Below, one piece after another: positions 9,793-28,983 of a stretch of 64,000 bases of DNA. This DNA is from an uncultured bacterium (GTDB taxonomy: Bacteria > Omnitrophota > Omnitrophia > Omnitrophales > Aquincolibacteriaceae). Numbering within the stretch: position 1 is the stretch's first letter; each line of letters begins with the position of its first letter. The DNA is taken from assembly GCA_964606385.1 (NCBI GenBank), contig CAZSFZ010000004.1, positions 47,344 through 111,343 of the forward strand, given 5' to 3'. A program made the translations under genes and the position numbers. The notes beneath the pieces were generated by a model that was not told where the DNA came from, did not search any database, and saw only the letters and a program-made list of their open reading frames with translations.

Positions 9793-9888
9793 ATGAATTC
9801 GCATAAAACATTCAAAGCGTTCGTTGCTGGTTTTACGGCCCTCATTTTTACCGTTACAAGTTTCGGAATTTCACCCAACGCTTTTGCG
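9793..9888 (+). other. Predicted Sec signal peptide of giant protein (cleavage near AFA/AAA)
   Basis: MNSHKTFKAFVAGFTALIFTVTSFGISPNAFA|AAA: n-region with K, hydrophobic core, AxA site. Confidence 0.6.
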
Positions 9889-12800: not shown

Positions 12801-15800
12801 TGCGGCCGAACTCGGCATCAAAAGACCCGCCAAATGGCAGTTCTGGATGCAAGATCCCGTGATCGAACGCATGAAAGCCTATGCGACCGAATATCTTGCT
12901 TTTTATGGGTATGCTCCCAAGGCTGCTTGGCTCAAGAGTTTTGTGGATATGTATCTCGCTGGGAGCCGCCACTCCTTTCAGGCTTTTCAGCGCATGCTTC
13001 CCGCTGACAAGCTGGATGCTTTTGTCTACATCGGTGATCTGAAGAAACTTCCCACAGCTCCTCAGCCCGCCGCTAAATCTGAAGTTCAGTCCGCGCTCAA
13101 GAAGCCAGGCGCCAAGCGATCCGAAATCCGGTTAACGCCTGAACAGGAGACGCGGCCATTAGATATCGTAAAAGACCAAGCTGCAATTAGTCATGTTGTT
13201 GTGACCGCTGAGTCCCTTTATAGGCAATGGTCTTCAAAATGGTTTTGGCAGTTACGCATGGGAGAATTTTCTAATGCAAAAAAGCAAATAAAAGCCCTTC
13301 TTGAAAACAAAAAACTTACTTATAAAGACCGGAACTTCTATGGTCTCAACAGACAACCAATTACCGAAGAAGCATTTATTCTACAAGTCATTGTTTTAGG
13401 GCGTTTGGGTTATGGTATTGACGCTTCGATTGTTACCAATAAAGAGATCACACGCTCAGTGAGCCGCGCTGGAAAACGTGACAGCTGGGAGACGTCAGAA
13501 GATGTTGAGCATTGGGGGCGCGACGTGGAAGTGGTGAGTCCGGCTTCGCACAATATTTATTTAGTAGCAACTGCTCGTTCTGAAGTTCGCTTGACGGATG
13601 CCGTGGATGTTTCGAATCAAGCTTTGTTTAATGATATCCGGTCGGTGGCGGAGAACCGGGGTGCTGAGGCCGCGCTGGAGTTCATTCATGCCTATGAGCC
13701 ACGCATCACGGGAGACCAGGACCGCGCCGCGCTTGAGGCTTATCGCAAAGCTTTAGAGCAATCGATGCGCTCAGAGCTACGTAACGCTGGAGAAAAAGAA
13801 GCTAAACGCCTCCAGTTAATGGAAGAGGCGAAAGCGCTGTCAGCGCAATCTGAGGCGATGGCCAAGGATCCTGATGAGGAACGGTACGCTCCTTTATATG
13901 AAGGCTATGCCCGCGAGAGATTGCGTCAGGCCGCGCAGCTTGAAGCTGAAATGGATGCTTCAGCCCGAGCTGAATTACGGGTTGGTGCAGTCATTCAACG
14001 TGTAGCAATCTTTGCGGCGGTGGCTGCGATGACGGGTCTTGTCGGATGCGCTACGAGTCAGCCAGGCCTTTATCATCCGCCGGTTTATTATCCCGCTTCT
14101 CAAAAGACACCCATCTATCATCCGCCGACCTTACCGTCCAACTACAGAGCTCCAAAAATCAATACGGCTCCTGTGGTTCCTCCGGGGGGTATCCGTGTGA
14201 CGCCTCCCCGCCCGTCTGTTCCGCCTGCGCCCAAGCCGCCGGTGATCCGTCCGGGACGTTCGGAGGTTCGTAGTGCGTTCCATCATCTCAAAGAAGCCAA
14301 GACGCCCGCGGAAGTCGGGCATTATCTGGCGCAGCTTTTGGTGACAGGCCAGTTGAACGGTCAGGATAAAAAGATCCTCGAGAAAGCCCTACAAGATGAA
14401 TTTGCTTCAGAAACATCCGGGGAAAAAGTCCAGGATCCTTCAAAGATCACACGTCGTTCCGAATTAAGGGGACACTTGGATCGAATTCGAAAGGCCCAGC
14501 AGAGGCTCGAAGAGGAACGGACCAGCGCCAAATGGCTTGTGATCCTTGGTTTGGCCGGACTTATTTTTATCCTGCACGCTCTCGAAAAATCTTCCTCAGG
14601 AGAAATTGATGAAGCGCAGACGCAAGCCCCTTTGCTTGATCTTGGGCAGGCCCAGCCGCGTTCGGAATTACGTGAAACAACGCAGGAAGCGCTGAGGAGG
14701 ATCCATGCGGACCTGGATGGTGTTGACCGGTTGATCACGGAACTTAAGCGCGACCGAAAAGCACCGAACCGAGAGACCCGTTTGAGGGTGTTGAATGCGG
14801 CTTACCGCGAACTCGAGCAGGAACGGCTTCGCTTGGAGATCGAAAAAGCGGTTAAAGATTTTTGGGGCGAAGAACTCATTCAGTTTCTTGGCTCGGTGGC
14901 GACCGTTTCTCCGGCGACACTTGGGCGCGCTTTAGTTCTGGGTGCGGTCATGCATCCCGCCATGATTCGGAATTTCACAAAGCTGGACCGTTCGGAAGTG
15001 AGGGCGGAAGCGGACGTGGCAACTGCGGCAAAGATCGCCGAACGATGGAAGAGGATCACTTATGTTGAAAGCGATCCGGAAGGCGCGAAGCTCAAGGCCG
15101 AAGCCGAAGAGAAAGGCGCTGGCTTCTTAAACAATGCCCAGACGACCGTCCGTAAAGTCGCAGCCCAGATCAAGCTCGATCCCAAAGTTCTTGAAAAGCT
15201 CCTCCAGTTTACGAAAGCGATTCAGATCAAGATTCCCCTGACGCTCGATGAAGGCGGGGAGACGCGTTACATTGACGGTTACCGTATTGGTCACGCTCCT
15301 TATCGCGGTCCTTACAAGGGCGGCATCCGTTACGCGATCGCGGTTGTGCTGTCCATGATCAAGGCGCTCGCGACGGAAATGAGTTTCAAGAACGCGATCG
15401 CGGGGCTTCCGTACGGCGGCGGCAAGGGCGGCGTGGCGGTCAACCCGAAGGAACTTTCCGTGAAGGAGCTTGCGCGCTTGACCCGCGGGTATGTTTCAGA
15501 ATGCCTGAAGCAGGATCCCAAAGCTTTCGGGCCCCTTGACGATGTTCCGGCGGGAGATATCGGAACTACTTCCCGTGAAATGGGCTGGTTCGCGGATGAA
15601 TTCTTGAAGATCACGCGTCCGGATCTTTTTACTTCTTCGGAGTTCCTTGAAAAACTTGCCAAGTCCGATGAAACCTCCACTCCTTATCTTGAATACTATA
15701 TGGAAGCTTATTACGGCAAGAGGCATATCGATATGAGTGAAGGTTCGCCCATCGCGACCGTGACGGCGAAACCCGAAGGGAAGGGCGGGGCTATGGGCCG

Positions 15801-18800
15801 TACGCCGGCAACCGGACTGGGACTCTATTACGTAACGCGTGAGGCGCTAAAGGTCTACGGCGAACGTCTTGGGATTGGAACAAGTGTGAAGGGACAAAGA
15901 GTCGCGGTGGAAGCCTACGGGAACGTCGGGAGTTACGCTGCCCGGAGTTTTTATAAAGACGGTGCTTCGATCATGGCTCTCAAAGAATATGTTCGCGGAC
16001 AAAATGTAGCGGTCACGGCCGTGAAAGATTCGGGCATCGATCTTGATGCGTTAGACAAGCATTTGGCTGAGAAAAATGCCGATGGAACTTCAAAGGGAAA
16101 TACGGTCCTGACCTATGCGGCGGCGCATCCGGAAGATGCGCGAGTGGTGGATGTCGATCAGTTCTGGTCAAGCGATGTGACGATCCTTGCATTGGCCGCG
16201 AAGGAAAAGACGGTCAATAAGGAAATAGCCGCTCTTATCAAAGCAAAGATCATCTCGGAGGGCGCAAACGGGCCTCTGGAGCTTGACGGCTCCGAGCAGA
16301 TCCTCCTGGATAAAGGCGCGATCATTCTTCCGGACGTGGCCACGAACGATGGCGGTGTAGCATTCTCGTCGCTGGAATGGCGGCAGAACAATATCGGGGA
16401 GCTTTGGCCGGAAGTCGCCGGGAACGGTCTCATGGAAGACAAAGTCGTAAGCGCTTTTTATGACATCTCCCGCGTTTCCGAATCCCAGAAGATCACCTTG
16501 CGCGAAGCGGCCTATCAGATCGCGATCAGCAAGATCGTGGACGCAATGCTTGCCGAGGATTCCGAGCTGGCGTCTCTTTTTGACGAGAGCCATCCTCCCT
16601 ATGTTATGGATGCGGGGGCGAAACGTTGGCGTCCGGAAACCCTGCCGCAACTGAAGCAGGTCGATTCGACCGCTAAAAGGATCGAGTTGATCGAACGGGC
16701 AGATAGCGTCATGAGCAAAAAGGTTGATGAGCTCGTGGCGGAGGCCCTTCGTGAGCTTCCCCTGAAACGAGGGAGCGTGATCCTCCTCGGCGGGCAGCGT
16801 GCGGCCGGAAAGCCGATGCTTGCCGGGCAGATTATGAACAAGATCCGCGAAAAGGGGATCAAGGCGGATGTTCTTGATTTGGATTATCAGACGATTGAAG
16901 ACGTATCCCGCGTGCTTCAGGGCAAGACTATTTTTGTGCGCAAAGAGAACGGTTTGAGCGGAGGGGCTTTCAACCTGGAAGATAAAGAGATCCTTGTGGT
17001 CCACGGTTATTATGCCTTAGGCGACGAGATCCTTCGATTCGTCAAGGCGATGGGAGGCAAGGCTTATCCTGTCATGGCTTATAGTTCACCCGACATCCTC
17101 CTCGCCAATAATTGGGCGCTGACCGCCTACGACCTGCGTTTGATGCGGGATATTTTAACAAGTGTGGCTGTTGGTGAGGAAAACAATGCCCAGGAAGTGA
17201 TCCGTCGGTGGCAATGGCAACGCGTTTCTGAGACTGAAGCTGTTATGGCGACCTGGAAGAATGCCAGGCGTGCGATCAATACGTACCTTCCTTATGAGCT
17301 TCCGTTCCTGAAATCCCTGATCGCTCCCATGATCCGTGTTGCAACGCAGCAGGAAATGAAACGTCCGGATAGCGACGTTTTCACCATGAATGTATTGCAT
17401 CATCTGGACAAGCTGTTGGTCGGCGTCGAGGGTTGGGATGTTTCACTTCTTGACGGCCATCATAATTCCGTGCTGTGGGAGTATGTACAACGCTATGCCC
17501 CGAATGGTATTTATGCGGAATCAGCCGACGACGATATCAAAAAAGTTGCGAACGCGTTGGTCAAGGAAGCCAAAGACACGGTTTTCCTTCTCACTAGCTT
17601 ACAAGACGCTGAAAATTTAACACAGTTGCCCGCGTGGCTCTCTGCCTCGATCGAGCGGATCCTGTTGGCCTTAGAAGTCCAGAAAGATGCCGCAAGCTGG
17701 TATGTCGAAAATCGCGGAAATCTAGTGAGGCTTTTGTCCGGCCGTTCGGAAATGAGGACGATGCCCGCTTTGGGGTCGCCCCACCAAGAACGCTCCGGGG
17801 CAAGGTTAAATGTGCTGATCCTCGGTCGGGGGAGTGATGCTGGGGTCCTGGGAGAGGATATTTGGAAGGGTTTGGGCCGTCCGGATCAAGGGATCTATAT
17901 GCCGGAGACGGAACGCGAAGCCAGAAGTGCTTTGCGGAATGTCCGCGGTTCATTTGATGCCGTGGTGGTAACGATCCCGGACGGAAATCAGACGCTTCCT
18001 CGATGGATGTTCGATCTTGTCCTGGAAATGCGCGGACAAATGCCCGAAATCCCCGTCTTGATCAGTGCGAGCGATAAAAGTATGGTCAGCCCCGCTGCGA
18101 TCTACACCATCAGGGCGCCGATTAAGCTGTTTGTGAAGACTCAAGGGTCTCCCGCGCTTGTTGCAACCCTGAAGGATATCCCGGCGCGTTCTGAAGCGCG
18201 GGCGATACCTGTGTTGGGGGCGACGCATCCGGAGTTGGAAGCCAAGTATAAAGATCAGGTGGAAGCCTCAACCCCCGCTTATGTGAAGCGGGGGAATCCT
18301 ATTTTTGATATCACAACCCCCGGGCAGTTCGAGGCCGTTTTGAAGTACGCGCATTTGTATGCGTACAAAAAAGACGTGGCTTTCGATCCTGCGAATCCCG
18401 GACCCAATGACGAGGGGCTCGGGCTCATGGCTTGGCTAGAGGACTATGAAGCCGAAGCCAAAGTGGCAACCGCGGGTATTCGTTTGACGCAGAATATTCT
18501 TTATCCTTGGGATACCCGGAACCGCATCAATGAGATCGGGATCGCATTCGCAACGCTCGCTAAAGCGTCGGTAAGTAAGGAACAGTTCTCCGGCAAGGAC
18601 CTGGAGAAACTAACGGGTGGGGAATCCCGTTATAACACCAAACGGTTCGTGGACATGATCGCCCGTATCCAGGCCGCACAGGGGATCAGGACCTATGTTC
18701 CCGTCAAACGCCATACGACACCGATCTGGATGGTGTCCATGCTGGCTTTTATGTTCGATCTTGTTGGTGCGGAACACGTGACCTCTTCTCACGCCGGCAG

Positions 18801-21800
18801 CAATTTTTCGGCGACCAAGGACATCAATAATCAAGGGAGCCAATACCTGCCTGAGGAATCAGGACGATTTGTCGCTAAGATCCGTGACATGTTCGAAGTA
18901 GCTAAAAAACAGGGCGAATTCCGTTTCGCGATCGCTGCAGCGAATGATCCTCTCATCGATGAAGAATTGATGAAAGCGACGGATGACGGAACGGATGTCT
19001 ATGTGGACTACCTGAAGAACGGTGTTGCGACGGGCGTCAATTTAGACCGCATCCGCAACGTCAAAGATAAGATCATTGTCGATAGTGTCGGAGGGTCCAT
19101 GTACCGGACCATGACGCGTATCTTTGCGAAACTCGGGATTGCGGACGCGTTCCAGTGGTTGCATACAGAAGAAGACCCGTTCTTTCACGGGATTGGTAAG
19201 GAATTGACCTCTGCGGGGAAGGTGAACGACTACACGCAGGACACGACGGTCATTAAACGTGACAAGAAAACCGGGGAAACGACTTCGATCCCTGTCATGG
19301 AACGTATGGGGTATGACACGCTTCTTAAGGACGCGCCGATCGGGAAAGTAGTGCTTATGACGGACCCGGATGGAGACCGTCTGGTAACGGGACAGGTGGA
19401 ATCCGCGGACCGTGCCGCATACTTGAAACAGCTTGGAGTGGAAGTCCTGAAGCTGGACGAGAATCGGATCCTCGCGGTCTACTCTCCAAACCAATCCTTT
19501 TTCATGTCGATGGTTTATCACGCGGATTCGCTCAAGGCCGCGGGACTGTGGGATAAGCACCCGCGTTTTATCATCATGACGACCGCTTCGTCGCCGGCGT
19601 GGCGCGAATGGGCCGAGAAGAACGGCGTCCAAGTCCTGAACGTGCCGGTCGGTTTTAAAGAGATCGCCGCGATGATGAAGAAGGTCGAATACCAGATGAA
19701 GAAAAATCCGGGAAAACCGGTCGTTGTGAAGGACGTCTTTGGGCGAGAAGTGAACCTGGGTTTGGACCCCCGGATGCTTTTTGCAGGAGAGGAGTCCGGC
19801 GGGATGATCATCGGGCCTGAAGAGCTTATCCAGAGCCGGAGCGGCCGTTTGGCGATCGCGATGCGGGAAAAGAGCGCGGGCGAAGCACTCGTGATCCAAG
19901 CAGCGATGGCGGCTTATTTGGAATCCAAAGGCCAGCCTTTGTCCGGTTATCTCAGTGAACTATTTGATAAGAACCGGATCGCAAGCCGTTTTGATGTGCG
20001 TCATGACCAGACTTTCTACAATCAAAGCGAGCCGGATCCCGATGAACTGAAGAAAGAAAAAGCGAAAGGCGAGATCGCCCGCGAAAAGAATTACGCGTTC
20101 TTTGTGAATATGGTGCTTTCGAAGCTTTCGGGGAAGACGACCACTCAACAGATCATCGAGATATTGAATGAGGTTTTCGCCCCTCAAGGGCTCCGCTTCG
20201 ATGATCTTCAGGACATGATCTTCGTGGGAGATGGTGTTTACCTTCAGTTTCCGGACAAAATCATGGAGATCCGGCCTTCCGGGACTGACGCGAAATCAAA
20301 ATCCTATGGTTACGGGAATGACAAGTTGCGTTTGGCGGTTTATGCGCAGGCCGTGGGTGCCTATAGCGGCGATCCGACGGCTCTTTACCGGCAGTATGTT
20401 GATATGAGCAATTTTGAAGAGGTTAGGGTCGTAAATGGGAAGCCTGTGTTTCGCGGCGAAGATGTTCGCTGGGAGCTTTATCAGGCTTATTACCGGGAGG
20501 GACTTCCGGAAGAGGACTATCAGCCGGCTATGGTTTCCGTCGGCTCAAATCTCGTGACCCCGGCTCAGTCGGAAATCCTGAAAGCGCGTGCGGAAATGCG
20601 TTCGAAACTTGATCTCGAGCAGGCCGCGAAAGCTATGACGATCTCGGCCGCGGTGATCTTGGGTCTTGTGGTCCTGGGCCAGCTCTCTGAAGTCGCTAAG
20701 CTGACGCTTGGCCTTGCCACACTCGGTCTTGCGGGAGCCTTCTGGAACATCCGGAATTTCAGCTTCAAACCGGAGGATCTTTCAAGCCGTTATCCTCAAG
20801 CGACTTCTCTGATCCGGGAGAAGATCCAAAAGATCCTCGCCATCGATCCGCATTTTACGGGTTATGCCTTGGACAGGATCGATTGGAAAAAGATCGATCG
20901 TGATCTTGTGGAGCTTGCTTCCTTAGAAGCGCTCATTGCGCATGGAAGTCAGCACGTTCTGACGGATAGCGGCATCAAGCTTGTTCGGGATGACCGCAAA
21001 GGTGCTGTGACGGTCTTTTCAGCGCAGTCCGTCCGTGACCAGCTCAAGAAGACAGGCGGGGAGATCGTTGAGGCGGGTCACCGGTACCGGCAAGCGGCGC
21101 GCGAACGCTATAGCGTTCAACTGGCTTCGCGTAGTGAGGCGCGCGCAGAAGGGGAAACAGAAGTAAAGCCTGCGGCAAACGCGGCCGTTTCGGCAGAGAA
21201 GCCGGTTGAGGAAAAGCCGGCGCCCAAGATCGATCCCACGAAACCGCTTTATGAAGCTACCTCGTCTCCTCGCGAAGAAAAATCTGCCGTGCTTGAAGGC
21301 GGGGCTATCTTGTTCTGGGGATTTATTGGCATTCTGACCGTGGCCGGATTAGTGGGCGCTCTGATCTTTATTCATAAGGAAGCGGCGCATGATGGTATGT
21401 CTCGCGCGATCATGGTCACGATCTATGGCGTGCTCGCGATCACCGGAACTGTCGCTGGGTGGTTAATCTATGGCATGAGTCGGGATAACCAAAAAATCGC
21501 GGGAGCGGAGGCGAGTTCCAAGTCTGAGGTGGTTTCTCCCGTTAAGGCAGGTAGTCAGCCGTTCCAGCCTTCCGATGCGCCCAAGATCCCCGCGGAAGCC
21601 GCGACGGAAAGCCGTTCCGAAGTGCGTCAAAACGTTGAACAGGAAATGAACGATCTTTTGTCCCGCCGGGACGACCTCATGAAAACCGAAAAATATACGG
21701 CCCAGGTTGCGGTCGAACTTCAGCAGGTCAACGACCGGATCGCGGAGATTCGCCGCAATGTTCAGCAATCCAGAGAGCGTTCGGAAATTCGTAATCCGGA

Positions 21801-24513
21801 AAAAACAATAGATCGAGAAATTGTTCCCGCCCTGATGAAAAGAATTGTCGACCGGGAAATGACGCTTCAAAAGATAGTGGTGGATGAAAAAACCCGTCTT
21901 GAAATAGAAGTTTCTTTGCGTGAACGCGCGATAAACGCTTATCACGCGATCTTTCCCGTTGCAGTCTCAAAAGGATTGGACCCCATAGCGGCTCTAAGGT
22001 TTTTTTATGGGCTGGTTCCTTCGGAAACGGATAGCGATAGAAAATTCATGGACGTCTATGCCGGATTTCTGGCGAAGGATGAAGAAAAGATTCGGGATGC
22101 GAACCGTCAAATATTCGGCACTCCGATCAAGGACCTGGCGACGGCTCGTGAGATCTTTGGGGAAAAATTCTCGTCATGGCTTGGCGTGTTGCTCGCTTTG
22201 CCTCAGGACCTTCTTGAGCAGCGGTTTGCCAAAAAGCTCAGCGGGGACCGCTATGAGCCGGTTGATGAAAATATCTCCGTAATGGCGAACTTCCTTGAGA
22301 ACTTGACGGGGCTTCGTTTGGGGGACGATCGCGAGGTTCTGATCGGGGAAGCCGGTCGGTTGTGGAATGCCTGGAATGATTGGGTCAATCCATCCCGGTC
22401 GATCCCGGTGGCGTCCCGTGTGCTCCAGGTGGGGGGCCTTCAGGTCGTCCAGCATTCCACAGGGTCTTTCATCGCGAAACGGTCTGAGACGCGGATCAAT
22501 CTTATGCAAGTGGCGCCTCAGTTACGGCCTGCGGCAGAATTTCTTGTGGCCACTTTGACGGCCGCAAAAGCAAGCCCGAGGATCGTGACCGCAACGGCTC
22601 GTGAAGTGAAGATCGGAATCACCGATCACGCGGAACGTCAGAATTTGGGGATCATCCTGGCTTATCATCCCGGGAAAACAGGGGTTCTCTATAACAATAG
22701 TGCTCAGCTGCCTGCCGCGGTGGATTTTGAGGTTCGCATTGAACGCGGGGCGGATGAAGCGGAAATGACCACATATGCTTTTGGAGCGGTCAGCGCCGAG
22801 GGCGACGCCCAGGCCAGGGATCTCGTGAATCAATCCTACAGATTGCTTGATACCCTGAGTAAGCTGGAACCTTCCTGGAGCAATGTGCTTCCGGATGGGT
22901 ACTACCCCGGGCGTGGTACCGAAACGGTTTCGCTGGGGACTGAAAAAGATGTCGGACAGACGCGCGCGGAAGTCCGCATCAATGATTTCCGCTATTCCAT
23001 AACCCCGCTGTCCGCGGATGAGAAACGGGTTCCGGGATCGATCAAACGTGAGATGAGTGATGAGGCCCAGCAACCCAATGTTCGCTGGAGCCGGGAGGAG
23101 CTCGAAGGTCTTTCCCAAAAGGTTGTGGATGCGATGAAATACTGGACCCCGAGGCTCTATACCTCCAAGGCTCCGGATGTTCAAACAGCCAAGATGGTTC
23201 AGGAACGGTTATACTCCGAACATTATAGCTATGAGATACCTCTCGCGGCCCATATGTTAAAGGAGATAGCCTTAAAAGCATTGGCCGGAAGAGGTCCTCA
23301 GATCAATGAACTGGGAGAAGGTGACTTGATGTGGGTGGCCAGGGTGCTTCGAGCAGGTGCCGAACATGGCCGCATCCTTCAGAAATACCGGGAAAACTAC
23401 CAGGGGTGGGGGAACTACGACCAGCTGGAATATCTGGCAAGCTCGTCCTCCTATCTGAGAAACGTTCTGAGGAAATTAACCGAGATTTATCAGGCAGAGG
23501 CGCGCCAGGCCGGATCGAATCAGCCCGTGGCTCCTTCCGCGACTGTTCGCTCGGAAGTCCGTGCCGAGGCTCAAGCGGTCTCGCCTGCCGATCAGGGGAA
23601 TTTCATCGTATGGCAGGATGTCCTCGAGGATGTCTACGAGGGTGTCCGTTATGAAGAGACGATCGTTGAAAAAGTGACGCGCTGGTTTCGCGCCGGCATC
23701 CTGCCGTTGCGTGTGGCGTTCTCAGCATCTTACCAGAGAGCGGTGGAGTTGTTGGAACGCATGGGGATCCGTAAAGATGAAGCCGTGGTGCTGGCGAGCC
23801 GTCTTACGGCGGAAGATATGCGGCTGCTTGAGGCGATCAATGCCAAGAGCTTGGCGATCCCCAGGGATCAGACAGGCAAAACCCTTGCCGGCGGTGTTGT
23901 GTTCATGGATGCCGAAGGGCTTCTGGGATTCGCTAAAAATGATAGCCGTGGTTTTTATGCCATGGTGGAAGAACTTGCCGCGGAACAGACGGCAAATGGC
24001 GTTACCGCTAAGCCGATCCTGACCGCGGGAGATGCCGCGTTGATCGGGAAGATCGCCCAAGTATTGAACAACAAGAATTCCGAACTTTTGCCGGCCGAAA
24101 AAGTAAAGGCCCAGGGCTTGATCGATCAAATCCTTCAGGTCGAGGCCCTCAAAGGGGATCAGGCCGCCACGATCAATGGATTGGCCGCGGCAAGACCCGG
24201 GGGGATGGTCACCGTTCTTTCTTCCGCAGAGATGCTGGCGGGCCTTAGCGAAGGAGCGAACTTCGCCTTCAAAGACCGCTTGGCCAAGGAGAACGTGAAA
24301 CTGGTCGTGCGGGCACTTTTGGGACGGATGAGAACGCTGGCAGCCCAATTGGATGGCGCTCCGGCCGCCGATCGGGTCAAGCTTCTTGAAGAGTTCAATG
24401 CGCGTCGCATGGGGGGTCTCAAGAAGACACAGGGCGGATTCGTTTTCGACAATGTCCTCTTGCTCGTCCAGAGCTTTCTCGCTCAGGAAAAAGCGACCGC
24501 GAAATCCGCATAA
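9793..24513 (+). CDS. Giant multidomain secreted/membrane protein, 4906 aa, with embedded amino-acid-dehydrogenase-like and phosphohexomutase-like domains and a recurring R-[SA]-E-x-R motif
   Basis: Uninterrupted 14.7-kb ORF, while neighbouring genes stop at TAA/TGA/TAG. N-terminal signal peptide. No similar-length antisense ORF. Internal enzyme-family motifs. See sub-features and findings. Confidence 0.85.
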   Translation: MNSHKTFKAFVAGFTALIFTVTSFGISPNAFAAAAMPEVSLPYQAALGQSLNLAVPQKLGKLEHFNAGQSDKPAIFHLQTAHGHYEAQQQIREILHYLDKQYGVRTVLVEGSAFKLEPELLNFFPKDKALTQKVNDALTKRAIVKGPELYLLDMLGERGTGNANVNRSTHDVSRAAAPAAYGIEDLNAYRENGVSFVNVLEEKQKTEQFLADMNLQIDRLASQLLNKDLRDFLRRVDAFEKNQIPLDTWLAQLKGEAAKRLEIDLASPTQQLDWPMMVRLFKAQELTAKIDREKLPKEREEFLKAIRRFMPGNVKRGTQNDPSTVSRSPFIAIESLLHSDSISVQLPDPETGMLFEDMVTQLPANFNYEAFPNVRNFIATLLLQSELKADLVMLEVQKLTAAVTEKLTRNKTEKKLVTLLADHRLLQKLFALELTPADYEAIAGHDPRSKAHEKTLKPSAIVARFKNVARGPGAVARSKAVQFENVQELDQLDQLYESAMKFYEGVKGRDELMMKRVEERLKETGDQKVAVITGGFHSEPFHKYFANKQYTYALISPRISGADDKGHVAYIESVMGITKRATRESVSPADRQVLAAENLYGVDQAAYRNLVRKVIADVTRPHLAEADAARLKFAAGLATAGNFRAEMRQTVPGTPQNTGETAAITFTEAKDIVEARKAKARVQGTRGAWPSLDSVFRDSSFVFIPIAVGSEFAGNYFLRSRSEARANDEGLIEQIVRDLKENIQAGPDFILTALQNRRSLLTLELNYYDIAEQIYQTLSKTGMKKVEAEIFFSKNSDAIRQAFSRSEARTEEEERALSVDILLGQSPQKLPQDVIHKLKENGFQTFGDILTALDEKLRKGKRRFSFLDWVTEVEFLVAVKREAPISYAKIQKIRTPKSRAEVREASEFGIEEDDKFPMTDAEADLSLDDIIGELYAVADADESDSGDAKAEALQHIDLIQSAKHKNQLLPAIVDAQKFLRSPLAANRSEVRIDPKELEAKFPTAAELGIKRPAKWQFWMQDPVIERMKAYATEYLAFYGYAPKAAWLKSFVDMYLAGSRHSFQAFQRMLPADKLDAFVYIGDLKKLPTAPQPAAKSEVQSALKKPGAKRSEIRLTPEQETRPLDIVKDQAAISHVVVTAESLYRQWSSKWFWQLRMGEFSNAKKQIKALLENKKLTYKDRNFYGLNRQPITEEAFILQVIVLGRLGYGIDASIVTNKEITRSVSRAGKRDSWETSEDVEHWGRDVEVVSPASHNIYLVATARSEVRLTDAVDVSNQALFNDIRSVAENRGAEAALEFIHAYEPRITGDQDRAALEAYRKALEQSMRSELRNAGEKEAKRLQLMEEAKALSAQSEAMAKDPDEERYAPLYEGYARERLRQAAQLEAEMDASARAELRVGAVIQRVAIFAAVAAMTGLVGCATSQPGLYHPPVYYPASQKTPIYHPPTLPSNYRAPKINTAPVVPPGGIRVTPPRPSVPPAPKPPVIRPGRSEVRSAFHHLKEAKTPAEVGHYLAQLLVTGQLNGQDKKILEKALQDEFASETSGEKVQDPSKITRRSELRGHLDRIRKAQQRLEEERTSAKWLVILGLAGLIFILHALEKSSSGEIDEAQTQAPLLDLGQAQPRSELRETTQEALRRIHADLDGVDRLITELKRDRKAPNRETRLRVLNAAYRELEQERLRLEIEKAVKDFWGEELIQFLGSVATVSPATLGRALVLGAVMHPAMIRNFTKLDRSEVRAEADVATAAKIAERWKRITYVESDPEGAKLKAEAEEKGAGFLNNAQTTVRKVAAQIKLDPKVLEKLLQFTKAIQIKIPLTLDEGGETRYIDGYRIGHAPYRGPYKGGIRYAIAVVLSMIKALATEMSFKNAIAGLPYGGGKGGVAVNPKELSVKELARLTRGYVSECLKQDPKAFGPLDDVPAGDIGTTSREMGWFADEFLKITRPDLFTSSEFLEKLAKSDETSTPYLEYYMEAYYGKRHIDMSEGSPIATVTAKPEGKGGAMGRTPATGLGLYYVTREALKVYGERLGIGTSVKGQRVAVEAYGNVGSYAARSFYKDGASIMALKEYVRGQNVAVTAVKDSGIDLDALDKHLAEKNADGTSKGNTVLTYAAAHPEDARVVDVDQFWSSDVTILALAAKEKTVNKEIAALIKAKIISEGANGPLELDGSEQILLDKGAIILPDVATNDGGVAFSSLEWRQNNIGELWPEVAGNGLMEDKVVSAFYDISRVSESQKITLREAAYQIAISKIVDAMLAEDSELASLFDESHPPYVMDAGAKRWRPETLPQLKQVDSTAKRIELIERADSVMSKKVDELVAEALRELPLKRGSVILLGGQRAAGKPMLAGQIMNKIREKGIKADVLDLDYQTIEDVSRVLQGKTIFVRKENGLSGGAFNLEDKEILVVHGYYALGDEILRFVKAMGGKAYPVMAYSSPDILLANNWALTAYDLRLMRDILTSVAVGEENNAQEVIRRWQWQRVSETEAVMATWKNARRAINTYLPYELPFLKSLIAPMIRVATQQEMKRPDSDVFTMNVLHHLDKLLVGVEGWDVSLLDGHHNSVLWEYVQRYAPNGIYAESADDDIKKVANALVKEAKDTVFLLTSLQDAENLTQLPAWLSASIERILLALEVQKDAASWYVENRGNLVRLLSGRSEMRTMPALGSPHQERSGARLNVLILGRGSDAGVLGEDIWKGLGRPDQGIYMPETEREARSALRNVRGSFDAVVVTIPDGNQTLPRWMFDLVLEMRGQMPEIPVLISASDKSMVSPAAIYTIRAPIKLFVKTQGSPALVATLKDIPARSEARAIPVLGATHPELEAKYKDQVEASTPAYVKRGNPIFDITTPGQFEAVLKYAHLYAYKKDVAFDPANPGPNDEGLGLMAWLEDYEAEAKVATAGIRLTQNILYPWDTRNRINEIGIAFATLAKASVSKEQFSGKDLEKLTGGESRYNTKRFVDMIARIQAAQGIRTYVPVKRHTTPIWMVSMLAFMFDLVGAEHVTSSHAGSNFSATKDINNQGSQYLPEESGRFVAKIRDMFEVAKKQGEFRFAIAAANDPLIDEELMKATDDGTDVYVDYLKNGVATGVNLDRIRNVKDKIIVDSVGGSMYRTMTRIFAKLGIADAFQWLHTEEDPFFHGIGKELTSAGKVNDYTQDTTVIKRDKKTGETTSIPVMERMGYDTLLKDAPIGKVVLMTDPDGDRLVTGQVESADRAAYLKQLGVEVLKLDENRILAVYSPNQSFFMSMVYHADSLKAAGLWDKHPRFIIMTTASSPAWREWAEKNGVQVLNVPVGFKEIAAMMKKVEYQMKKNPGKPVVVKDVFGREVNLGLDPRMLFAGEESGGMIIGPEELIQSRSGRLAIAMREKSAGEALVIQAAMAAYLESKGQPLSGYLSELFDKNRIASRFDVRHDQTFYNQSEPDPDELKKEKAKGEIAREKNYAFFVNMVLSKLSGKTTTQQIIEILNEVFAPQGLRFDDLQDMIFVGDGVYLQFPDKIMEIRPSGTDAKSKSYGYGNDKLRLAVYAQAVGAYSGDPTALYRQYVDMSNFEEVRVVNGKPVFRGEDVRWELYQAYYREGLPEEDYQPAMVSVGSNLVTPAQSEILKARAEMRSKLDLEQAAKAMTISAAVILGLVVLGQLSEVAKLTLGLATLGLAGAFWNIRNFSFKPEDLSSRYPQATSLIREKIQKILAIDPHFTGYALDRIDWKKIDRDLVELASLEALIAHGSQHVLTDSGIKLVRDDRKGAVTVFSAQSVRDQLKKTGGEIVEAGHRYRQAARERYSVQLASRSEARAEGETEVKPAANAAVSAEKPVEEKPAPKIDPTKPLYEATSSPREEKSAVLEGGAILFWGFIGILTVAGLVGALIFIHKEAAHDGMSRAIMVTIYGVLAITGTVAGWLIYGMSRDNQKIAGAEASSKSEVVSPVKAGSQPFQPSDAPKIPAEAATESRSEVRQNVEQEMNDLLSRRDDLMKTEKYTAQVAVELQQVNDRIAEIRRNVQQSRERSEIRNPEKTIDREIVPALMKRIVDREMTLQKIVVDEKTRLEIEVSLRERAINAYHAIFPVAVSKGLDPIAALRFFYGLVPSETDSDRKFMDVYAGFLAKDEEKIRDANRQIFGTPIKDLATAREIFGEKFSSWLGVLLALPQDLLEQRFAKKLSGDRYEPVDENISVMANFLENLTGLRLGDDREVLIGEAGRLWNAWNDWVNPSRSIPVASRVLQVGGLQVVQHSTGSFIAKRSETRINLMQVAPQLRPAAEFLVATLTAAKASPRIVTATAREVKIGITDHAERQNLGIILAYHPGKTGVLYNNSAQLPAAVDFEVRIERGADEAEMTTYAFGAVSAEGDAQARDLVNQSYRLLDTLSKLEPSWSNVLPDGYYPGRGTETVSLGTEKDVGQTRAEVRINDFRYSITPLSADEKRVPGSIKREMSDEAQQPNVRWSREELEGLSQKVVDAMKYWTPRLYTSKAPDVQTAKMVQERLYSEHYSYEIPLAAHMLKEIALKALAGRGPQINELGEGDLMWVARVLRAGAEHGRILQKYRENYQGWGNYDQLEYLASSSSYLRNVLRKLTEIYQAEARQAGSNQPVAPSATVRSEVRAEAQAVSPADQGNFIVWQDVLEDVYEGVRYEETIVEKVTRWFRAGILPLRVAFSASYQRAVELLERMGIRKDEAVVLASRLTAEDMRLLEAINAKSLAIPRDQTGKTLAGGVVFMDAEGLLGFAKNDSRGFYAMVEELAAEQTANGVTAKPILTAGDAALIGKIAQVLNNKNSELLPAEKVKAQGLIDQILQVEALKGDQAATINGLAAARPGGMVTVLSSAEMLAGLSEGANFAFKDRLAKENVKLVVRALLGRMRTLAAQLDGAPAADRVKLLEEFNARRMGGLKKTQGGFVFDNVLLLVQSFLAQEKATAKSA
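10256..10315. repeat. Family-1 palindromic element inserted in-frame inside the giant ORF
   Basis: ggggaacggggaacggggaacgcaaacgttaaccgttccacgcatgacgtttcccgcg. Translates GERGTGNANVNRSTHDVSRA without a stop. Confidence 0.7.
10724..10790. repeat. Family-1 palindromic element inserted in-frame inside the giant ORF
   Basis: ggggaacgtaaaacgtggaacgcagaacgatccgtcaaccgtttcccgttcaccgttcatcg. Translates GNVKRGTQNDPSTVSRSPFIA. Confidence 0.7.
11193..11223. repeat. Family-2 direct tandem (GTGGCCCG x3) in-frame inside giant ORF
   Basis: cgtggcccgtggcccgggagccgtggcccgg, translated VARGPGAVAR. Confidence 0.6.
13981..14260 (+). other. Predicted TM helix followed by a Pro/Tyr-rich low-complexity segment in giant protein
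   Basis: VGAVIQRVAIFAAVAAMTGLVGCA, then PGLYHPPVYYPASQKTPIYHPPTLPSNYRAPKINTAPVVPPGGIRVTPPRPSVPPAPKPPVIRPG. Confidence 0.55.
14527..14585 (+). other. Predicted TM helix in giant protein
   Basis: AKWLVILGLAGLIFILHAL hydrophobic stretch. Confidence 0.5.
15190..16560 (+). other. Glu/Leu/Phe/Val dehydrogenase (GDH-family) domain inside giant protein
   Basis: Family motifs in canonical order: PYKGGIRYA (substrate Lys), GGGKGG (catalytic Lys loop), DVPAGDIGTTSREMGWFADEF, and NAD(P) fingerprint AYGNVGSYAARSF. Confidence 0.75.
16770..16890 (+). other. P-loop kinase-like segment (degenerate Walker A) inside giant protein
   Basis: GSVILLGGQRAAGKPMLAGQIMNKIREKGIKADVLDLD resembles a uridine-kinase/PRK-type N-terminus, but GKP replaces GK[ST]. 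Confidence 0.3.
18430..20400 (+). other. alpha-D-phosphohexomutase (PGM/PMM)-like domain inside giant protein
   Basis: All four family motifs in order: Ser loop TSSHAGSN (~18790), metal loop TDPDGDRL (~19365), sugar loop AGEESGGM (~19790), phosphate loop IRPSGTDAKSK (~20275). Confidence 0.7.
20620..20752 (+). other. Predicted pair of TM helices in giant protein
   Basis: AAKAMTISAAVILGLVVLGQL...LTLGLATLGLAGAFWNI. Confidence 0.5.
21298..21480 (+). other. Predicted cluster of ~3 TM helices in giant protein
   Basis: GGAILFWGFIGILTVAGLVGALIFI...AIMVTIYGVLAITGTVAGWLIYGM. Confidence 0.5.
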
Positions 24514-25854: not shown

Positions 25855-26838
25855 ATGACCGACACTCCGGATTCTTCCTGCGCGATCGAGTTTGAGCATG
25901 TGTCCAAAAAATACGGCTCGTTCTACGCGCTTCGCGACGTTTCTTTCGATGTCCGGGAAGGCGAGATCGTAGGATTTCTCGGGCCGAACGGCGCCGGGAA
26001 AACGACGGCCATGCGCATTCTTTCCGGGTTCTTTCCTCCGACGAGCGGGCGCGTCTCCATTTGCGGGACGAATATGTTCAAGAATCCTCACAAGGCCAAA
26101 CGTTTTTTGGGCTATCTTCCCGAGGTTGTGAGCCTTTATCCCGACATGAAGGTGATCGAATACTTGCGTTTTGTGGCGAAGCTTAAAGGGGTTCCGGCGC
26201 ATGAGATCAAGGGGCATGTAAGAAGTAAAATGAATTTCTGCGGACTCCAGGAGACCGGTCACCGTTTGATCGGGCGGCTTTCCAAAGGTTATCGCCAGAG
26301 GGTCGGCCTCGCGCAGGCGTTGATCGGAGACCCGCGGGTCCTGATCCTGGATGAACCGACGACGGGGCTCGACCCGACCCAGATCAAGGAGATCCGTGAT
26401 CTTATTCGTGCGTTGGGGCAGAACCGCGCGGTGATCCTTTCGACGCACATCCTTCCGGAAGTTTCCATGCTTTGCAGCCGGGTGATGATGATCAATCAGG
26501 GCGAGATCCTCGCGAATGGGACTGTTCCGGAACTGGCCTCCTGCCTGGAGGACCGTGAAGCGATCCACATCAAGATCAAGGACCGCAAAGACCAGGCGCG
26601 GGCGCTCAAGCTCCTGAGCGCGATCCCCGGCATTGAGGCCCTGAAAGTGGCGGAGGAGGTCCGAGGCGAGACCTTTATTTCCTTCGAAACTTCGCCCGAT
26701 CAGGACCTCCGGCCCCGCATCATGAAACTTTTTGTGGATGAGAAGATCTCGCTTGCGGAGATCCAGCGCGTTCAGTTGTCGCTCGAGGATATCTTTCTTG
26801 GGCTTTTGAAGAACGGGAAGCTCGGGAGGCGTTCGTGA
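25855..26838 (+). CDS. ABC transporter ATP-binding protein (ABC-2 / gliding-motility-associated type)
   Basis: Walker A GPNGAGKTT, signature LSKGYRQRV, Walker B LILDEPTTGLD. Confidence 0.85.
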   Translation: MTDTPDSSCAIEFEHVSKKYGSFYALRDVSFDVREGEIVGFLGPNGAGKTTAMRILSGFFPPTSGRVSICGTNMFKNPHKAKRFLGYLPEVVSLYPDMKVIEYLRFVAKLKGVPAHEIKGHVRSKMNFCGLQETGHRLIGRLSKGYRQRVGLAQALIGDPRVLILDEPTTGLDPTQIKEIRDLIRALGQNRAVILSTHILPEVSMLCSRVMMINQGEILANGTVPELASCLEDREAIHIKIKDRKDQARALKLLSAIPGIEALKVAEEVRGETFISFETSPDQDLRPRIMKLFVDEKISLAEIQRVQLSLEDIFLGLLKNGKLGRRS

Positions 26839-28969: not shown

Positions 28970-28983
28970 GAGGTTCATGCCCG

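What the first reader, a model, noticed from the sequence alone, without database searches (positions are those of the whole stretch)
18430..20400. Phosphoglucomutase/phosphomannomutase-like domain with all four family loops inside the giant protein
All four family loops occur at appropriate spacing:
- the phosphoserine-loop analogue TSSHAGSN
- the metal-binding TDPDGDR
- the sugar-binding GEESGG
- the phosphate-binding RPSGTD

This indicates a complete alpha-D-phosphohexomutase fold. It lies between RSEAR (aa 2799) and RAEMR (aa 3599).

The giant protein therefore carries two central-metabolism-type enzyme modules, GDH-like and PGM-like, in a protein predicted to be exported or membrane-anchored. 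This raises the question whether they act extracellularly, are released by processing, or are structural decoys. The Ser loop deviates from canonical T[AP]SHNP (SHAG instead of SHNP).
Basis: partly seen in the sequence, partly recalled or inferred. Interest (0 to 1): 0.65.

Follow-up and report, generated by a model that had tools for sequence, protein, structure and literature searches.

The report
Phosphoglucomutase-like cassette in Omnitrophota giant protein
A complete, apparently active sugar-phosphate mutase is embedded as a self-contained unit in a 4,906-residue Omnitrophota protein; the five-residue motifs on both its sides may be cut sites that release it, but cutting has not been shown.

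Summary
All four motifs lie in frame in the ORF at 9793-24513. Structure prediction, fold search and profile alignment show a full four-domain alpha-D-phosphohexomutase.

The module (aa 2804-3598, nt 18202-20586) belongs to a small, divergent family of about 760 residues. Thousands of free-standing gut-bacterial proteins of that family align with it end to end.

The catalytic Ser-His, Asp-x-Asp-x-Asp-Arg, GEESGG and RPSGTD loops are invariant. dN/dS is about 0.05, so it is most likely a working phosphoglucomutase-type enzyme and not a decoy.

The organism is a Candidatus Omnitrophota bacterium. Two preprints already list PGM/PMM Pfam domains in Omnitrophota giant "multi-enzyme" proteins, so the domain itself is not new.

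What I could not find reported:
- The module is exactly bracketed by R[SA]ExR. This motif occurs 22 times in this protein against 0.3 expected.
- Relatives bracket the same cassette with RSExR, or in other lineages with AARLA, K.SSAG or SASG.

My best reading is a polyprotein-like train of whole proteins with lineage-specific processing sites. Processing would leave the mutase in the cytoplasm. Cleavage is inferred, not shown.

The parts
9793..24513 (+). Giant ORF of 4,906 aa. It has an N-terminal signal peptide or anchor and 23 cassettes separated by 22 R[SA]ExR motifs.
   Evidence: The 4,781-aa orthologue P0122 aligns with it cassette by cassette.
18187..18201 (+). Upstream delimiter RSEAR (aa 2799-2803).
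   Evidence: L003, L004 and P0124 have RSE[AV]R at the equivalent position. P0125 has AARLA there.
18202..20586 (+). PGM-like cassette (aa 2804-3598, 795 aa). It is a complete four-domain alpha-D-phosphohexomutase of a divergent family of about 760 residues.
   Evidence: It aligns end to end with free-standing 753-767-aa proteins at about 52% identity and 92% coverage. AF2 pLDDT is 84.5. Foldseek top 50 are all phosphohexomutases. hhalign against E. coli Pgm gives E 1e-6. dN/dS is 0.04-0.08.
18469..18483 (+). N-terminal TAGIR motif of domain I. It pairs with E. coli Pgm TSGHR.
18781..18804 (+). Phosphoserine loop TSSHAGSN. The predicted catalytic Ser is aa 2999 (nt 18787-18789).
   Evidence: It pairs with TPSHNP of E. 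coli Pgm and with TASHN (Ser117) of human PGM1. TSSH is invariant in alignment A1.
19360..19380 (+). Metal-binding loop TDPDGDR (Asp-x-Asp-x-Asp-Arg).
   Evidence: It pairs with NDPDYDR of E. coli Pgm. D, D, D and R are invariant.
19786..19803 (+). Sugar-binding loop GEESGG in domain III.
   Evidence: It lies within the PGM_PMM_III Pfam hit (34.2 bits against a cut-off of 20.7). It pairs with GEESAG of E. coli Pgm. It is invariant.
20272..20289 (+). Phosphate-binding loop RPSGTD in domain IV.
   Evidence: EIRPSGTDAK is invariant. It pairs weakly with ARPSGTE of E. coli Pgm. A family member matches the C-terminal part of TIGR03990. The fold match covers the full length.
20587..20601 (+). Downstream delimiter RAEMR (aa 3599-3603).
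   Evidence: L003, L004 and P0124 have RSE[AV]R at the equivalent position. P0125 has AARLA there.
20632..20751 (+). Two hydrophobic helices that start 7-10 residues into the cassette following the PGM cassette.
   Evidence: Kyte-Doolittle scan.
15004..17742 (+). GDH cassette (aa 1738-2650). It combines a Glu/Leu/Phe/Val dehydrogenase core with an extension of about 395 aa that looks like a P-loop domain. No delimiter lies between the two.
13981..14049 (+). Lipoprotein-type signal sequence (…LVGC) lying directly after the delimiter RAELR.
   Evidence: Read from the sequence. It is conserved in P0122.

Best explanation
The region encodes a complete enzyme of the alpha-D-phosphohexomutase superfamily, and that enzyme is most likely catalytically competent. 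Its sugar loop (GEESGG) and its best profile match both point to a phosphoglucomutase type that interconverts Glc-1-P and Glc-6-P.

It belongs to a distinct, uncharacterised family of about 760 residues. That family also exists as free-standing housekeeping genes in gut bacteria such as Candidatus Gastranaerophilales.

Here the whole protein is one cassette in a Candidatus Omnitrophota "multi-enzyme" giant gene. The giant is a train of self-contained proteins: enzymes, a lipoprotein-like unit, small membrane proteins and many units of unknown function. A conserved head and a conserved tail flank the train. A five-residue motif, R-[S/A]-E-x-R, separates the units.

I infer that these motifs are recognition sites for an endopeptidase that has not been identified. 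Cutting there would release the mutase, which has no signal sequence, as an 88-kDa soluble cytoplasmic enzyme. Units that begin with a signal sequence or anchor would be exported or inserted separately.

Shown:
- the fold
- the conserved catalytic residues
- purifying selection
- the exact match between the motifs and the ends of the free-standing protein
- the cassette behaving as a unit in evolution

Inferred:
- enzyme activity and substrate
- cleavage
- the compartment in which it acts
For: **Fold and catalytic residues**
- The AF2 model has pLDDT 84.5.
- The 50 best Foldseek PDB hits are all phosphohexomutases, with E down to 2e-19.
- hhalign against E. coli Pgm gives E 1e-6 and pairs the Ser, metal and sugar loops.
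- The family consensus TSSH pairs with TASH of human PGM1, whose catalytic residue is Ser117.
- TSSH, DPDxDR, GEESGG and EIRPSGTDAK are invariant in 16 sequences.
- The same loops are present in most of the more distant fused copies checked: all four in 6 of 8, and two or three in the other two under the exact patterns used.

**Selection**
- dN/dS is 0.04-0.08 against L003 and L004.
- This is the best-conserved cassette between the window and P0122, at 94.7% identity against 56-88% for the others.

**Cassette equals whole protein**
- Free-standing proteins of 753-767 aa start about 8 residues after RSEAR and end about 15 residues before RAEMR.
- P0124 cassette 206-480 equals a whole NagB/Pgl-like protein.

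**The motif is not chance**
- 22 R[SA]ExR against 0.29 expected. Codons vary, so the signal is at amino-acid level. Only one RSExR (RSEGR) occurs in the other genes of the window.
- L003 has 19 in 4,317 aa, and the motif flanks the PGM cassette in L003, L004 and P0124.
- Other lineages flank the same cassette with AARLA (20 sites in P0125), K.SSAG or SASG.

**Cassette-wise evolution**
- Whole cassettes are gained or lost between the window and P0122.
- Only the PGM cassette is shared with L003 and P0124, and it is shared as a unit.

**Independent N-termini**
- A lipobox signal lies directly after RAELR.
- The first hydrophobic segment lies within 28 residues of the cassette start in 7 of 10 cassettes, against 3.2 expected (P about 0.008).

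**Metabolic context**
- Reading the sequences of related giants, I recognised motifs typical of PGI, hexokinase, PFK, PEPCK and UGPase. These identifications were not tested with profiles.
- A preprint groups PGM with starch synthase and ROK kinase in such proteins.
Against: **Nothing direct**
- There is no direct evidence of cleavage, and no protease has been identified.
- The conserved head domain gave no Pfam hit. Its model was mediocre and had no significant fold match.

**Not every junction has a delimiter**
- The GDH cassette has a 395-aa extension joined without a motif.
- In P0123 the PGM is joined directly to the next module, which by my reading of its first residues looks like an alanine dehydrogenase.
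- P0123 and P0126 show no obvious short delimiter.

**Topology and membership**
- Read as one uncut chain with the hydrophobic segments I found, the stretch aa 1598-3610, which holds GDH and PGM, would lie outside the cytoplasm. My hydrophobicity scan is crude.
- Pfam domains I and II are below cut-off and domain IV is not detected.
- A profile of the family finds no PDB sequence at E below 1e-3.
- The Ser loop is modelled with low confidence.

**Substrate**
- Substrate specificity rests on loop resemblance only.
Confidence: 0.55

Rival explanations
1. The cassette is an active mutase but is never cut out. It works as a tethered domain of one membrane-anchored giant polypeptide, alongside GDH and the other modules, as a fixed multi-enzyme assembly. 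The R[SA]ExR motifs are then conserved linkers or docking sites, not cleavage sites.
For: - The giant ORF is conserved intact in P0122 and L003.
- Some junctions have no delimiter.
- The 2026 preprint reads such proteins as membrane-anchored, with the metabolic content on one face of the membrane.
- No protease was found.
Against: - A linker does not need a strict five-residue motif.
- A linker would not be swapped for unrelated motifs (AARLA, K.SSAG, SASG) at the same position in other lineages.
- A lipoprotein-type signal and signal-anchor-like helices directly after delimiters make little sense inside one uncut chain.
- The uncut topology places NAD(P)-dependent GDH and PGM outside the cytoplasm.
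Confidence: 0.25
2. The mutase acts outside the cytoplasm, in the periplasm or on the surface, on sugar phosphates released from prey or host cells. This would be part of the predatory or epibiotic lifestyle proposed for Omnitrophota.
For: - The protein has an N-terminal signal peptide. The uncut-chain topology puts aa 1598-3610 on the outer side.
- West-Roberts et al. report that glycolytic and PGM/PMM domains are predicted extracellular and suggest they pre-process external sugars.
Against: - The same authors warn that the localisation may be wrong.
- The mutase needs a phosphorylated active site and a bisphosphate cofactor, and GDH needs NAD(P). From general biochemistry, both are unlikely outside the cell.
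- The cassette has no signal sequence of its own.
- Its free-standing relatives are ordinary genes among housekeeping neighbours, with no export signal noted.
Confidence: 0.1
3. The module is a pseudoenzyme. It would be a structural or sugar-phosphate-binding unit that has lost catalysis, as parafusin and PGM5 have within this superfamily.
For: - The Ser loop departs from the canonical T[AP]SHNP.
- Pfam domains I, II and IV are weak or missing.
- The loop has low model confidence.
Against: - The catalytic Ser and His, all three metal-binding Asp, the Arg, and the sugar and phosphate loops are invariant in free-standing and fused members.
- The loop variant is shared by thousands of free-standing genes that look like housekeeping genes.
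- dN/dS is about 0.05.
Confidence: 0.07
4. The giant ORF is an assembly or gene-calling artefact that joins separate genes.
For: In a related contig the PGM cassette is called as a separate 1,057-aa gene next to a gene of more than 4,605 aa.
Against: - The frame stays open for 14.7 kb with no stop.
- The same architecture appears in independent assemblies: P0122, L003 and fragments P0408-P0416.
- No start codon context marks the cassette starts. The motifs are in frame and conserved at amino-acid level.
Confidence: 0.03

Closest known systems
Alpha-D-phosphohexomutase superfamily (E. coli and Salmonella Pgm 2FUV/3OLP, Thermococcus kodakarensis PGM 9DU5, human PGM1, PMM/PGM, GlmM)
   Same: - The same four-domain fold.
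- The phosphoserine loop Thr-x-Ser-His, the metal loop Asp-x-Asp-x-Asp-Arg, the sugar loop GEESxG, the VPVGFK strand and the phosphate loop R-x-S-G-T all pair with E. coli Pgm.
   Different: - Only 13-16% identity to any solved structure.
- A family profile finds no PDB sequence at E below 1e-3.
- The same profile finds only 664 representatives among 1.84 billion proteins, so it does not reach the ordinary PGM families.
- About 760 residues against 450-580, through an N-terminal extension and insertions in domains II and IV.
- The Ser loop reads TSSH[AG] instead of T[AP]SHNP.
- No member has been characterised, as far as the names in the databases show.
Free-standing PGM-like family of about 760 aa (e.g. 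P0007, P0017 from Candidatus Gastranaerophilales, P0108, P0112)
   Same: About 50-53% identity over 92% of the cassette, with the same length and the same invariant motifs.
   Different: - They are single genes among housekeeping neighbours, with no conserved operon.
- They have no flanking delimiter motifs.
- The Omnitrophota copies add a short P-x-LG-x-T-x-P-[ED]-LE lead-in.
Omnitrophota giant proteins: the 'Archaeovorins' of West-Roberts et al. 2023 (10.1101/2023.11.21.568195) and the 'multi-enzyme metabolic clusters' of the 2026 preprint (10.64898/2026.06.07.730766)
   Same: - The same phylum.
- The same kind of protein: many unrelated enzyme domains, transmembrane helices and a signal peptide.
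- PGM/PMM Pfam domains are explicitly listed in both papers.
   Different: - This one is small, at 4.9 kAA. The 2026 survey started at 10 kAA.
- Neither paper reports delimiter motifs. West-Roberts et al. state that cleavage points are unknown.
- The 2026 text contains no words beginning with 'cleav', 'motif', 'proteoly' or 'polyprotein'. It discards internal signal-peptide calls as artefacts.
Processed polyproteins. Examples are viral polyproteins and the Porphyromonas gingivalis RgpA/Kgp/HagA precursors cut at Arg/Lys. Multi-core peptide precursors such as cyanobactin PatE, where each core is flanked by recognition sequences, are a related case (from my own knowledge, not tested here).
   Same: One ORF, many functional units, and a short recurring recognition sequence at each junction.
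   Different: - Here the units would be whole housekeeping enzymes and membrane proteins of a cellular organism.
- Cleavage and the protease are unproven.
- The motif differs between lineages.

Membership tests
Alpha-D-phosphohexomutase superfamily | Four-domain alpha/beta fold (domains I-IV). | tested here: met
   The AF2 model has pLDDT 84.5 and pTM 0.87. The Foldseek top 50 are all members, with E down to 2e-19 and target TM-score 0.6-0.74.
Alpha-D-phosphohexomutase superfamily | Domain I phosphoserine loop with catalytic Ser-His. | tested here: met
   TSSH pairs with TPSH of E. coli Pgm and with TASH (Ser117) of human PGM1. It is invariant in the family.
Alpha-D-phosphohexomutase superfamily | Domain II metal-binding loop Asp-x-Asp-x-Asp-Arg. 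| tested here: met
   DPDGDR pairs with DPDYDR of E. coli Pgm. It is invariant.
Alpha-D-phosphohexomutase superfamily | Domain III sugar-binding loop (GEESxG in PGM-type enzymes). | tested here: met
   GEESGG pairs with GEESAG. The Pfam PGM_PMM_III hit scores 34.2 bits against a cut-off of 20.7.
Alpha-D-phosphohexomutase superfamily | Domain IV phosphate-binding loop R-x-S-G-T. | tested here: inconclusive
   RPSGTD is invariant and pairs with ARPSGTE of E. coli Pgm, but only at pairwise E 0.0055 and 6.6% probability. There is no Pfam PGM_PMM_IV hit. Support comes from the full-length fold match and a TIGR03990 C-terminal match in P0108.
Alpha-D-phosphohexomutase superfamily | Curated sequence thresholds: Pfam domains I, II and IV, NCBIfam equivalogs, and the PROSITE-type signature ...[ST]-[PGA]-S-H-x-P (the signature recalled from memory). 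| tested here: not met
   PGM_PMM_I scores 18.0 against 22.5. PGM_PMM_II scores 21.5 against 29.3. Domain IV is absent. TIGR03990 scores 43 bits against 439. The loop reads T-S-S-H-A-G, with Ser where [PGA] is expected and no Pro.
Alpha-D-phosphohexomutase superfamily | Mg2+- and bisphosphate-dependent phosphosugar mutase activity. | not testable with these tools
   This needs an enzyme assay of aa 2804-3598 and of a Ser2999Ala mutant.
Omnitrophota giant multi-enzyme proteins | Encoded in an Omnitrophota genome. | tested here: met
   The closest genome loci, at 82-83% identity, are a Candidatus Omnitrophota MAG and an uncultured bacterium. Head-domain relatives are named Candidatus Omnitrophica or Omnitrophota.
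Omnitrophota giant multi-enzyme proteins | One very long ORF that tiles many unrelated domains and carries a signal peptide or TM helices. | tested here: met
   4,906 aa with GDH, PGM and many dark cassettes, an N-terminal signal, and 5-6 internal hydrophobic helices. It is shorter than the 10-kAA threshold of the 2026 survey.
Proteolytically processed polyprotein | A recurring short site at the junctions between functional units. | tested here: met
   22 R[SA]ExR against 0.29 expected. The sites coincide with the ends of the free-standing PGM family and of a NagB/Pgl-like unit in P0124. Other lineages use different motifs at the same position.
Proteolytically processed polyprotein | A cognate protease. 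| tested here: inconclusive
   No protease domain was found in the giant or among the window neighbours I scanned. The idea that the head domain is Tiki/TraB-like was not confirmed.
Proteolytically processed polyprotein | Mature products observed. | not testable with these tools
   This needs proteomics or N-terminomics. No such data were found in the library.

The most novel reading that the evidence does not exclude
Omnitrophota "giant multi-enzyme proteins" may be true cellular polyproteins. Each would be a train of complete, independently functional proteins: housekeeping enzymes such as PGM and GDH, lipoproteins and membrane proteins. The train is translated as one chain and cut at lineage-specific motifs of four to six residues (RSExR, AARLA, K.SSAG, SASG and others). 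Each unit would then go to its own compartment. The PGM cassette here, with its ends matching a free-standing protein family to within a few residues, would be the clearest marker of those cut sites.
Probability: 0.4. Interest if true: 0.9.

Novelty: new variant of a known kind. Interest (0 to 1): 0.6.

Why it matters
**The open question.** Work on Omnitrophota giant genes has left it open whether the products act as one huge protein or are cut up. West-Roberts et al. state that the lack of known cleavage points blocked dividing the proteins for structure prediction.

**What this cassette adds.**
- It gives concrete, testable candidate cut sites, because its ends can be calibrated against thousands of free-standing homologues.
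- The same logic appears with different motifs in other lineages.

**If the sites are real, three things follow.**
- Giant ORFs can be split into units for annotation and structure prediction.
- The puzzle of cytoplasmic-type enzymes predicted to lie outside the cell is resolved.
- Internal signal-peptide calls that have been discarded as artefacts become meaningful.

**A second, separate result.** The cassette defines a divergent, uncharacterised branch of about 760 residues in a well-studied enzyme superfamily.

Tried and rejected
**Sequence search against solved structures.** A single-sequence search of the PDB found no mutase. A family-profile search found none at E below 1e-3. Only a marginal PGM1 hit appeared, at E 0.025. 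The fold search was needed to settle the question.

**Head domain as the processing protease.** The motifs H-x-Q-D-A-H, E-G, R-D and G-G-F-H-T reminded me of the Tiki/TraB/ChaN superfamily.
- Pfam gave nothing.
- The AF2 model was mediocre, at pLDDT 66.6.
- Foldseek against the PDB gave no significant match. An erythromycin-esterase-like entry (2rad) appeared only at E 1.2.
- The domain also follows a signal sequence, so it would sit outside the cytoplasm.
- I dropped the idea as unconfirmed.

**GDH cassette as a second end-to-end test.** It passed only in part. The GDH core ends where GDHs of about 510 aa end, but a 395-aa extension follows with no delimiter. No free-standing two-domain homologue was found.

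**The motif as a DNA-level repeat or recombination scar.** Rejected. The codons differ between copies, including TCN against AGT for Ser and CGN against AGR for Arg.

**Ser-dependent self-cleavage at R-S.** Unlikely. Ala replaces Ser in 5 of the 22 sites.

**Genomic context of free-standing homologues.** It gave no functional clue. The neighbours are housekeeping genes that vary between genomes.

**Cluster look-up.** It gave almost no names or taxonomy.

**Search with the head-domain alignment.** It returned only 10 proteins, most of them fragments.

**Literature.** I found no paper that mentions the motif.

Full report
**Observation**

The window holds one uninterrupted ORF, 9793-24513 on the + strand, of 4,906 aa.
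- TSSHAGSN at aa 2997 (nt 18781)
- TDPDGDR at aa 3190 (nt 19360)
- GEESGG at aa 3332 (nt 19786)
- RPSGTD at aa 3494 (nt 20272)

**What the region is**

Pfam on its own is weak. PGM_PMM_III passes its cut-off (34.2 bits against 20.7). Domains I (18.0 against 22.5) and II (21.5 against 29.3) do not, and domain IV is not detected. NCBIfam gives only a sub-threshold GlmM match.

Stronger tests settle the matter.
- An AlphaFold2 model built on 16 homologues has pLDDT 84.5 and pTM 0.87.
- Its 50 best Foldseek matches in the PDB are all alpha-D-phosphohexomutases, with E down to 2e-19 and TM-scores of 0.6-0.74 on the targets at 13-16% identity. They include archaeal and bacterial PGM and PMM/PGM, Salmonella Pgm, human PGM1, GlmM and phosphopentomutase.
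- A profile-profile alignment with E. coli Pgm gives 91% probability and E 1e-6. It pairs TAGIR with TSGHR, TSSHAG with TPSHNP, DPDGDR with DPDYDR, VPVGFKE with VPVGFKW, and GEESGG with GEESAG.
- A marginal HMM hit pairs TSSH with TASH of human PGM1, whose catalytic residue is Ser117.
- The phosphate loop pairs with ARPSGTE of E. coli Pgm only weakly at sequence level. It is invariant in the family, and the fold match covers domain IV.

The complete four-domain fold and four of the five motif equivalences are therefore shown. The domain IV equivalence is probable.

**A distinct family**

The closest relatives are not ordinary PGMs.
- A database search found 2,579 hits. Two are close fused copies (P0001 at 86% and P0002 at 60% identity). 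Nearly all the other listed hits are free-standing proteins of about 750-790 aa, at 47-53% identity and about 92% coverage.
- One of these is named Candidatus Gastranaerophilales. The others come from gut-type metagenomes.
- A profile of the family found only 664 representatives at E of 1e-3 or better among 1.84 billion cluster representatives. The family is therefore small and sharply separated from the mainstream of the superfamily.
- The same profile finds no PDB sequence at E below 1e-3.
- The free-standing genes sit among varying housekeeping neighbours, with no conserved operon.
- TSSH, DPDxDR, GEESGG and EIRPSGTDAK are invariant in the alignment. Most of the more distant fused copies checked keep them: all four loops in 6 of 8, and two or three in the other two under the exact patterns used.
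- Against two related loci the cassette has dN/dS of 0.04-0.08, with dS saturated.
- It is the best-conserved cassette of the giant protein, at 94.7% identity with P0122.

I conclude that it is a working enzyme. The GEES-type sugar loop and the best profile match point to a phosphoglucomutase-type specificity. This rests on resemblance only.

**Organism and prior knowledge**

The nearest genome loci, at 82-83% identity, are a Candidatus Omnitrophota MAG and an uncultured bacterium. P0122, the 4,781-aa orthologue of the whole giant, is already annotated in IMG as [quoted passage not shown].

West-Roberts et al. (10.1101/2023.11.21.568195) list PGM/PMM among the glycolytic domains of Omnitrophota giant proteins. 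They note that these domains are predicted extracellular, possibly wrongly, and they state that cleavage points are unknown. A 2026 preprint (10.64898/2026.06.07.730766) describes "multi-enzyme metabolic clusters" with PGM Pfams in 88/65/64 giants. The presence of a PGM-like domain in such a protein is therefore known.

**The cassette and its delimiters**

The free-standing proteins align with the module end to end. They begin about 8 residues after RSEAR and end about 15 residues before RAEMR.

R[SA]ExR occurs 22 times in the giant protein against 0.29 expected from composition. The codons differ between copies, including TCN and AGT for Ser and CGN and AGR for Arg. Only one RSExR (RSEGR) occurs in the other genes of the window. 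The signal is therefore at amino-acid level and specific to this protein.

Relatives show the same pattern.
- In L003, a different giant ORF open over all 12,954 nt with 19 RSExR, and in L004, the 802-aa PGM cassette is again flanked on both sides by RSE[AV]R.
- The same holds in P0124.
- Between the window and P0122 the cassettes align one to one from first to last residue. The differences are gains or losses of whole cassettes.
- With L003 and P0124 only the PGM cassette is shared, as a unit.
- In P0124 another cassette (aa 206-480) equals a whole NagB/Pgl-like protein.

Other Omnitrophota giants flank the same PGM cassette with unrelated motifs.
- AARLA on both sides in P0125, giving a cassette of 765 aa. 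There are 20 such sites, with ARLA expected 0.38 times.
- K.SSAG in P0226 and SASG in P0153.
- S.AMT and DASAL recur in two further proteins.

I found no mention of these motifs in the literature library.

**How it most likely works**

The motif has four properties:
- It is strict and short.
- It sits exactly at the ends of self-contained proteins.
- It is replaced by a different motif in other lineages.
- It is kept at amino-acid level.

These properties are what one expects of a recognition site that co-evolves with a dedicated endopeptidase.

Two further observations fit independent N-termini.
- A lipoprotein-type signal (VGAVIQRVAIFAAVAAMTGLVGC) lies directly after RAELR.
- In 7 of 10 non-orthologous cassettes with hydrophobic helices, the first helix lies within 28 residues of the cassette start. 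The expectation is 3.2, giving P about 0.008 with a crude predictor and a small sample.

Read as one uncut chain, the segment holding GDH and PGM (aa 1598-3610) would lie outside the cytoplasm. That is hard to reconcile with the cofactor needs of these enzymes. Cutting at the motifs removes this problem. The PGM cassette has no signal sequence and would stay in the cytoplasm. There it would link glycogen and Glc-1-P metabolism with glycolysis.

This fits the modules I recognised by eye in related giants: PGI, hexokinase, PFK, PEPCK and UGPase (identified from characteristic motifs and not tested with profiles). It also fits the starch-synthase and ROK-kinase association reported in the 2026 preprint.

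All of this is inference. No product, cut site or protease has been observed.

**Limits and counter-evidence**

- Not every junction has a delimiter. The GDH cassette carries a 395-aa extension that looks like a P-loop domain, joined without a motif.
- In P0123 the PGM runs directly into the next enzyme.
- P0123 and P0126 show no short recurring motif. P0126 instead separates its enzymes with repeated membrane domains that carry an EExRH motif.
- The conserved head domain of these giants has no Pfam hit and gave no significant fold match. My idea that it is a Tiki/TraB-like protease is unconfirmed.
- The window neighbours I scanned are ordinary housekeeping genes, with no peptidase next to the giant gene.

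**Verdict**

- The domain is a new member of a divergent branch of a known enzyme superfamily, inside a known kind of Omnitrophota giant protein.
- The added value is the exact bracketing of a whole-protein cassette by lineage-specific delimiter motifs. This turns the question "are these giants processed?" into a direct experiment.

Noticed in passing
window 11722-23562 (22 sites within the giant ORF): R[SA]E[AVILMT]R recurs 22 times against 0.29 expected. The codons vary between copies. The motif splits the protein into 23 cassettes of 50-976 aa. Only the GDH and PGM cassettes gave Pfam hits, and the other cassettes I scanned gave none.
   Followed up: yes
P0125 (7,416 aa), P0226, P0153, P0171, P0170: Other Omnitrophota giants use different recurring motifs: AARLA 20 times, K.SSAG 6 times, SASG 3 times, S.AMT 4 times and DASAL 5 times. 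The first three flank the PGM cassette on both sides. This suggests lineage-specific delimiters.
   Followed up: partly
window 13981-14049: A lipoprotein-type signal sequence with lipobox LVGC lies immediately after the delimiter RAELR, deep inside the ORF at aa 1397-1419. It is conserved in P0122.
   Followed up: partly
window 9793-11721 and 23563-24510: A head domain of about 640 aa follows the signal peptide and carries the motifs H-x-Q-D/T-A-H, VEG and GGFH[ST]E. A C-terminal tail ends in …AKSA. Both are shared by many of these giants, and the head was found only in Omnitrophota hypothetical proteins. Neither has a Pfam hit, and the head model matched no known fold.
   Followed up: partly
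window 16555-17742: The GDH cassette carries a C-terminal extension of about 395 aa with a P-loop (GGQRAAGKP). It has only weak similarity to APS-kinase and STAND NTPases. It is joined to the GDH core without a delimiter.
   Followed up: partly
window 17758-18186: The 143-aa cassette between GDH and PGM has no Pfam hit. Several planctomycete GDH homologues are fused to a response-regulator receiver domain, which may or may not be related.
   Followed up: no
P0001 and its contig (ENA ERZ1426847, no DNA available): A 1,057-aa "mini-train" consists of its own signal peptide, RAEAR, the PGM cassette (86% identical), RAEER and a tail domain. The next gene on the contig is a giant of more than 4,605 aa.
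   Followed up: partly
P0126 (4,499 aa): The enzyme modules (a phosphoesterase-like unit, PGM, hexokinase-like units) are separated by repeated membrane domains, not by short motifs. Each of these domains carries an E-E-x-R-H motif. They may be embedded peptidase-like units.
   Followed up: no
bioRxiv 10.64898/2026.06.07.730766, Methods: The survey of Omnitrophota giants downgraded every internal signal-peptide call as a chunking artefact. If the delimiters are cut sites, some of those calls may be real.
   Followed up: no
window 25855-29994: An ABC transporter set lies two genes downstream of the giant gene. It comprises an ATPase, a permease-like ORF, ABC_transp_aux and DUF4340, and resembles the gliding-associated GldA/F/G type. 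I found no evidence that it is linked to the giant protein.
   Followed up: no
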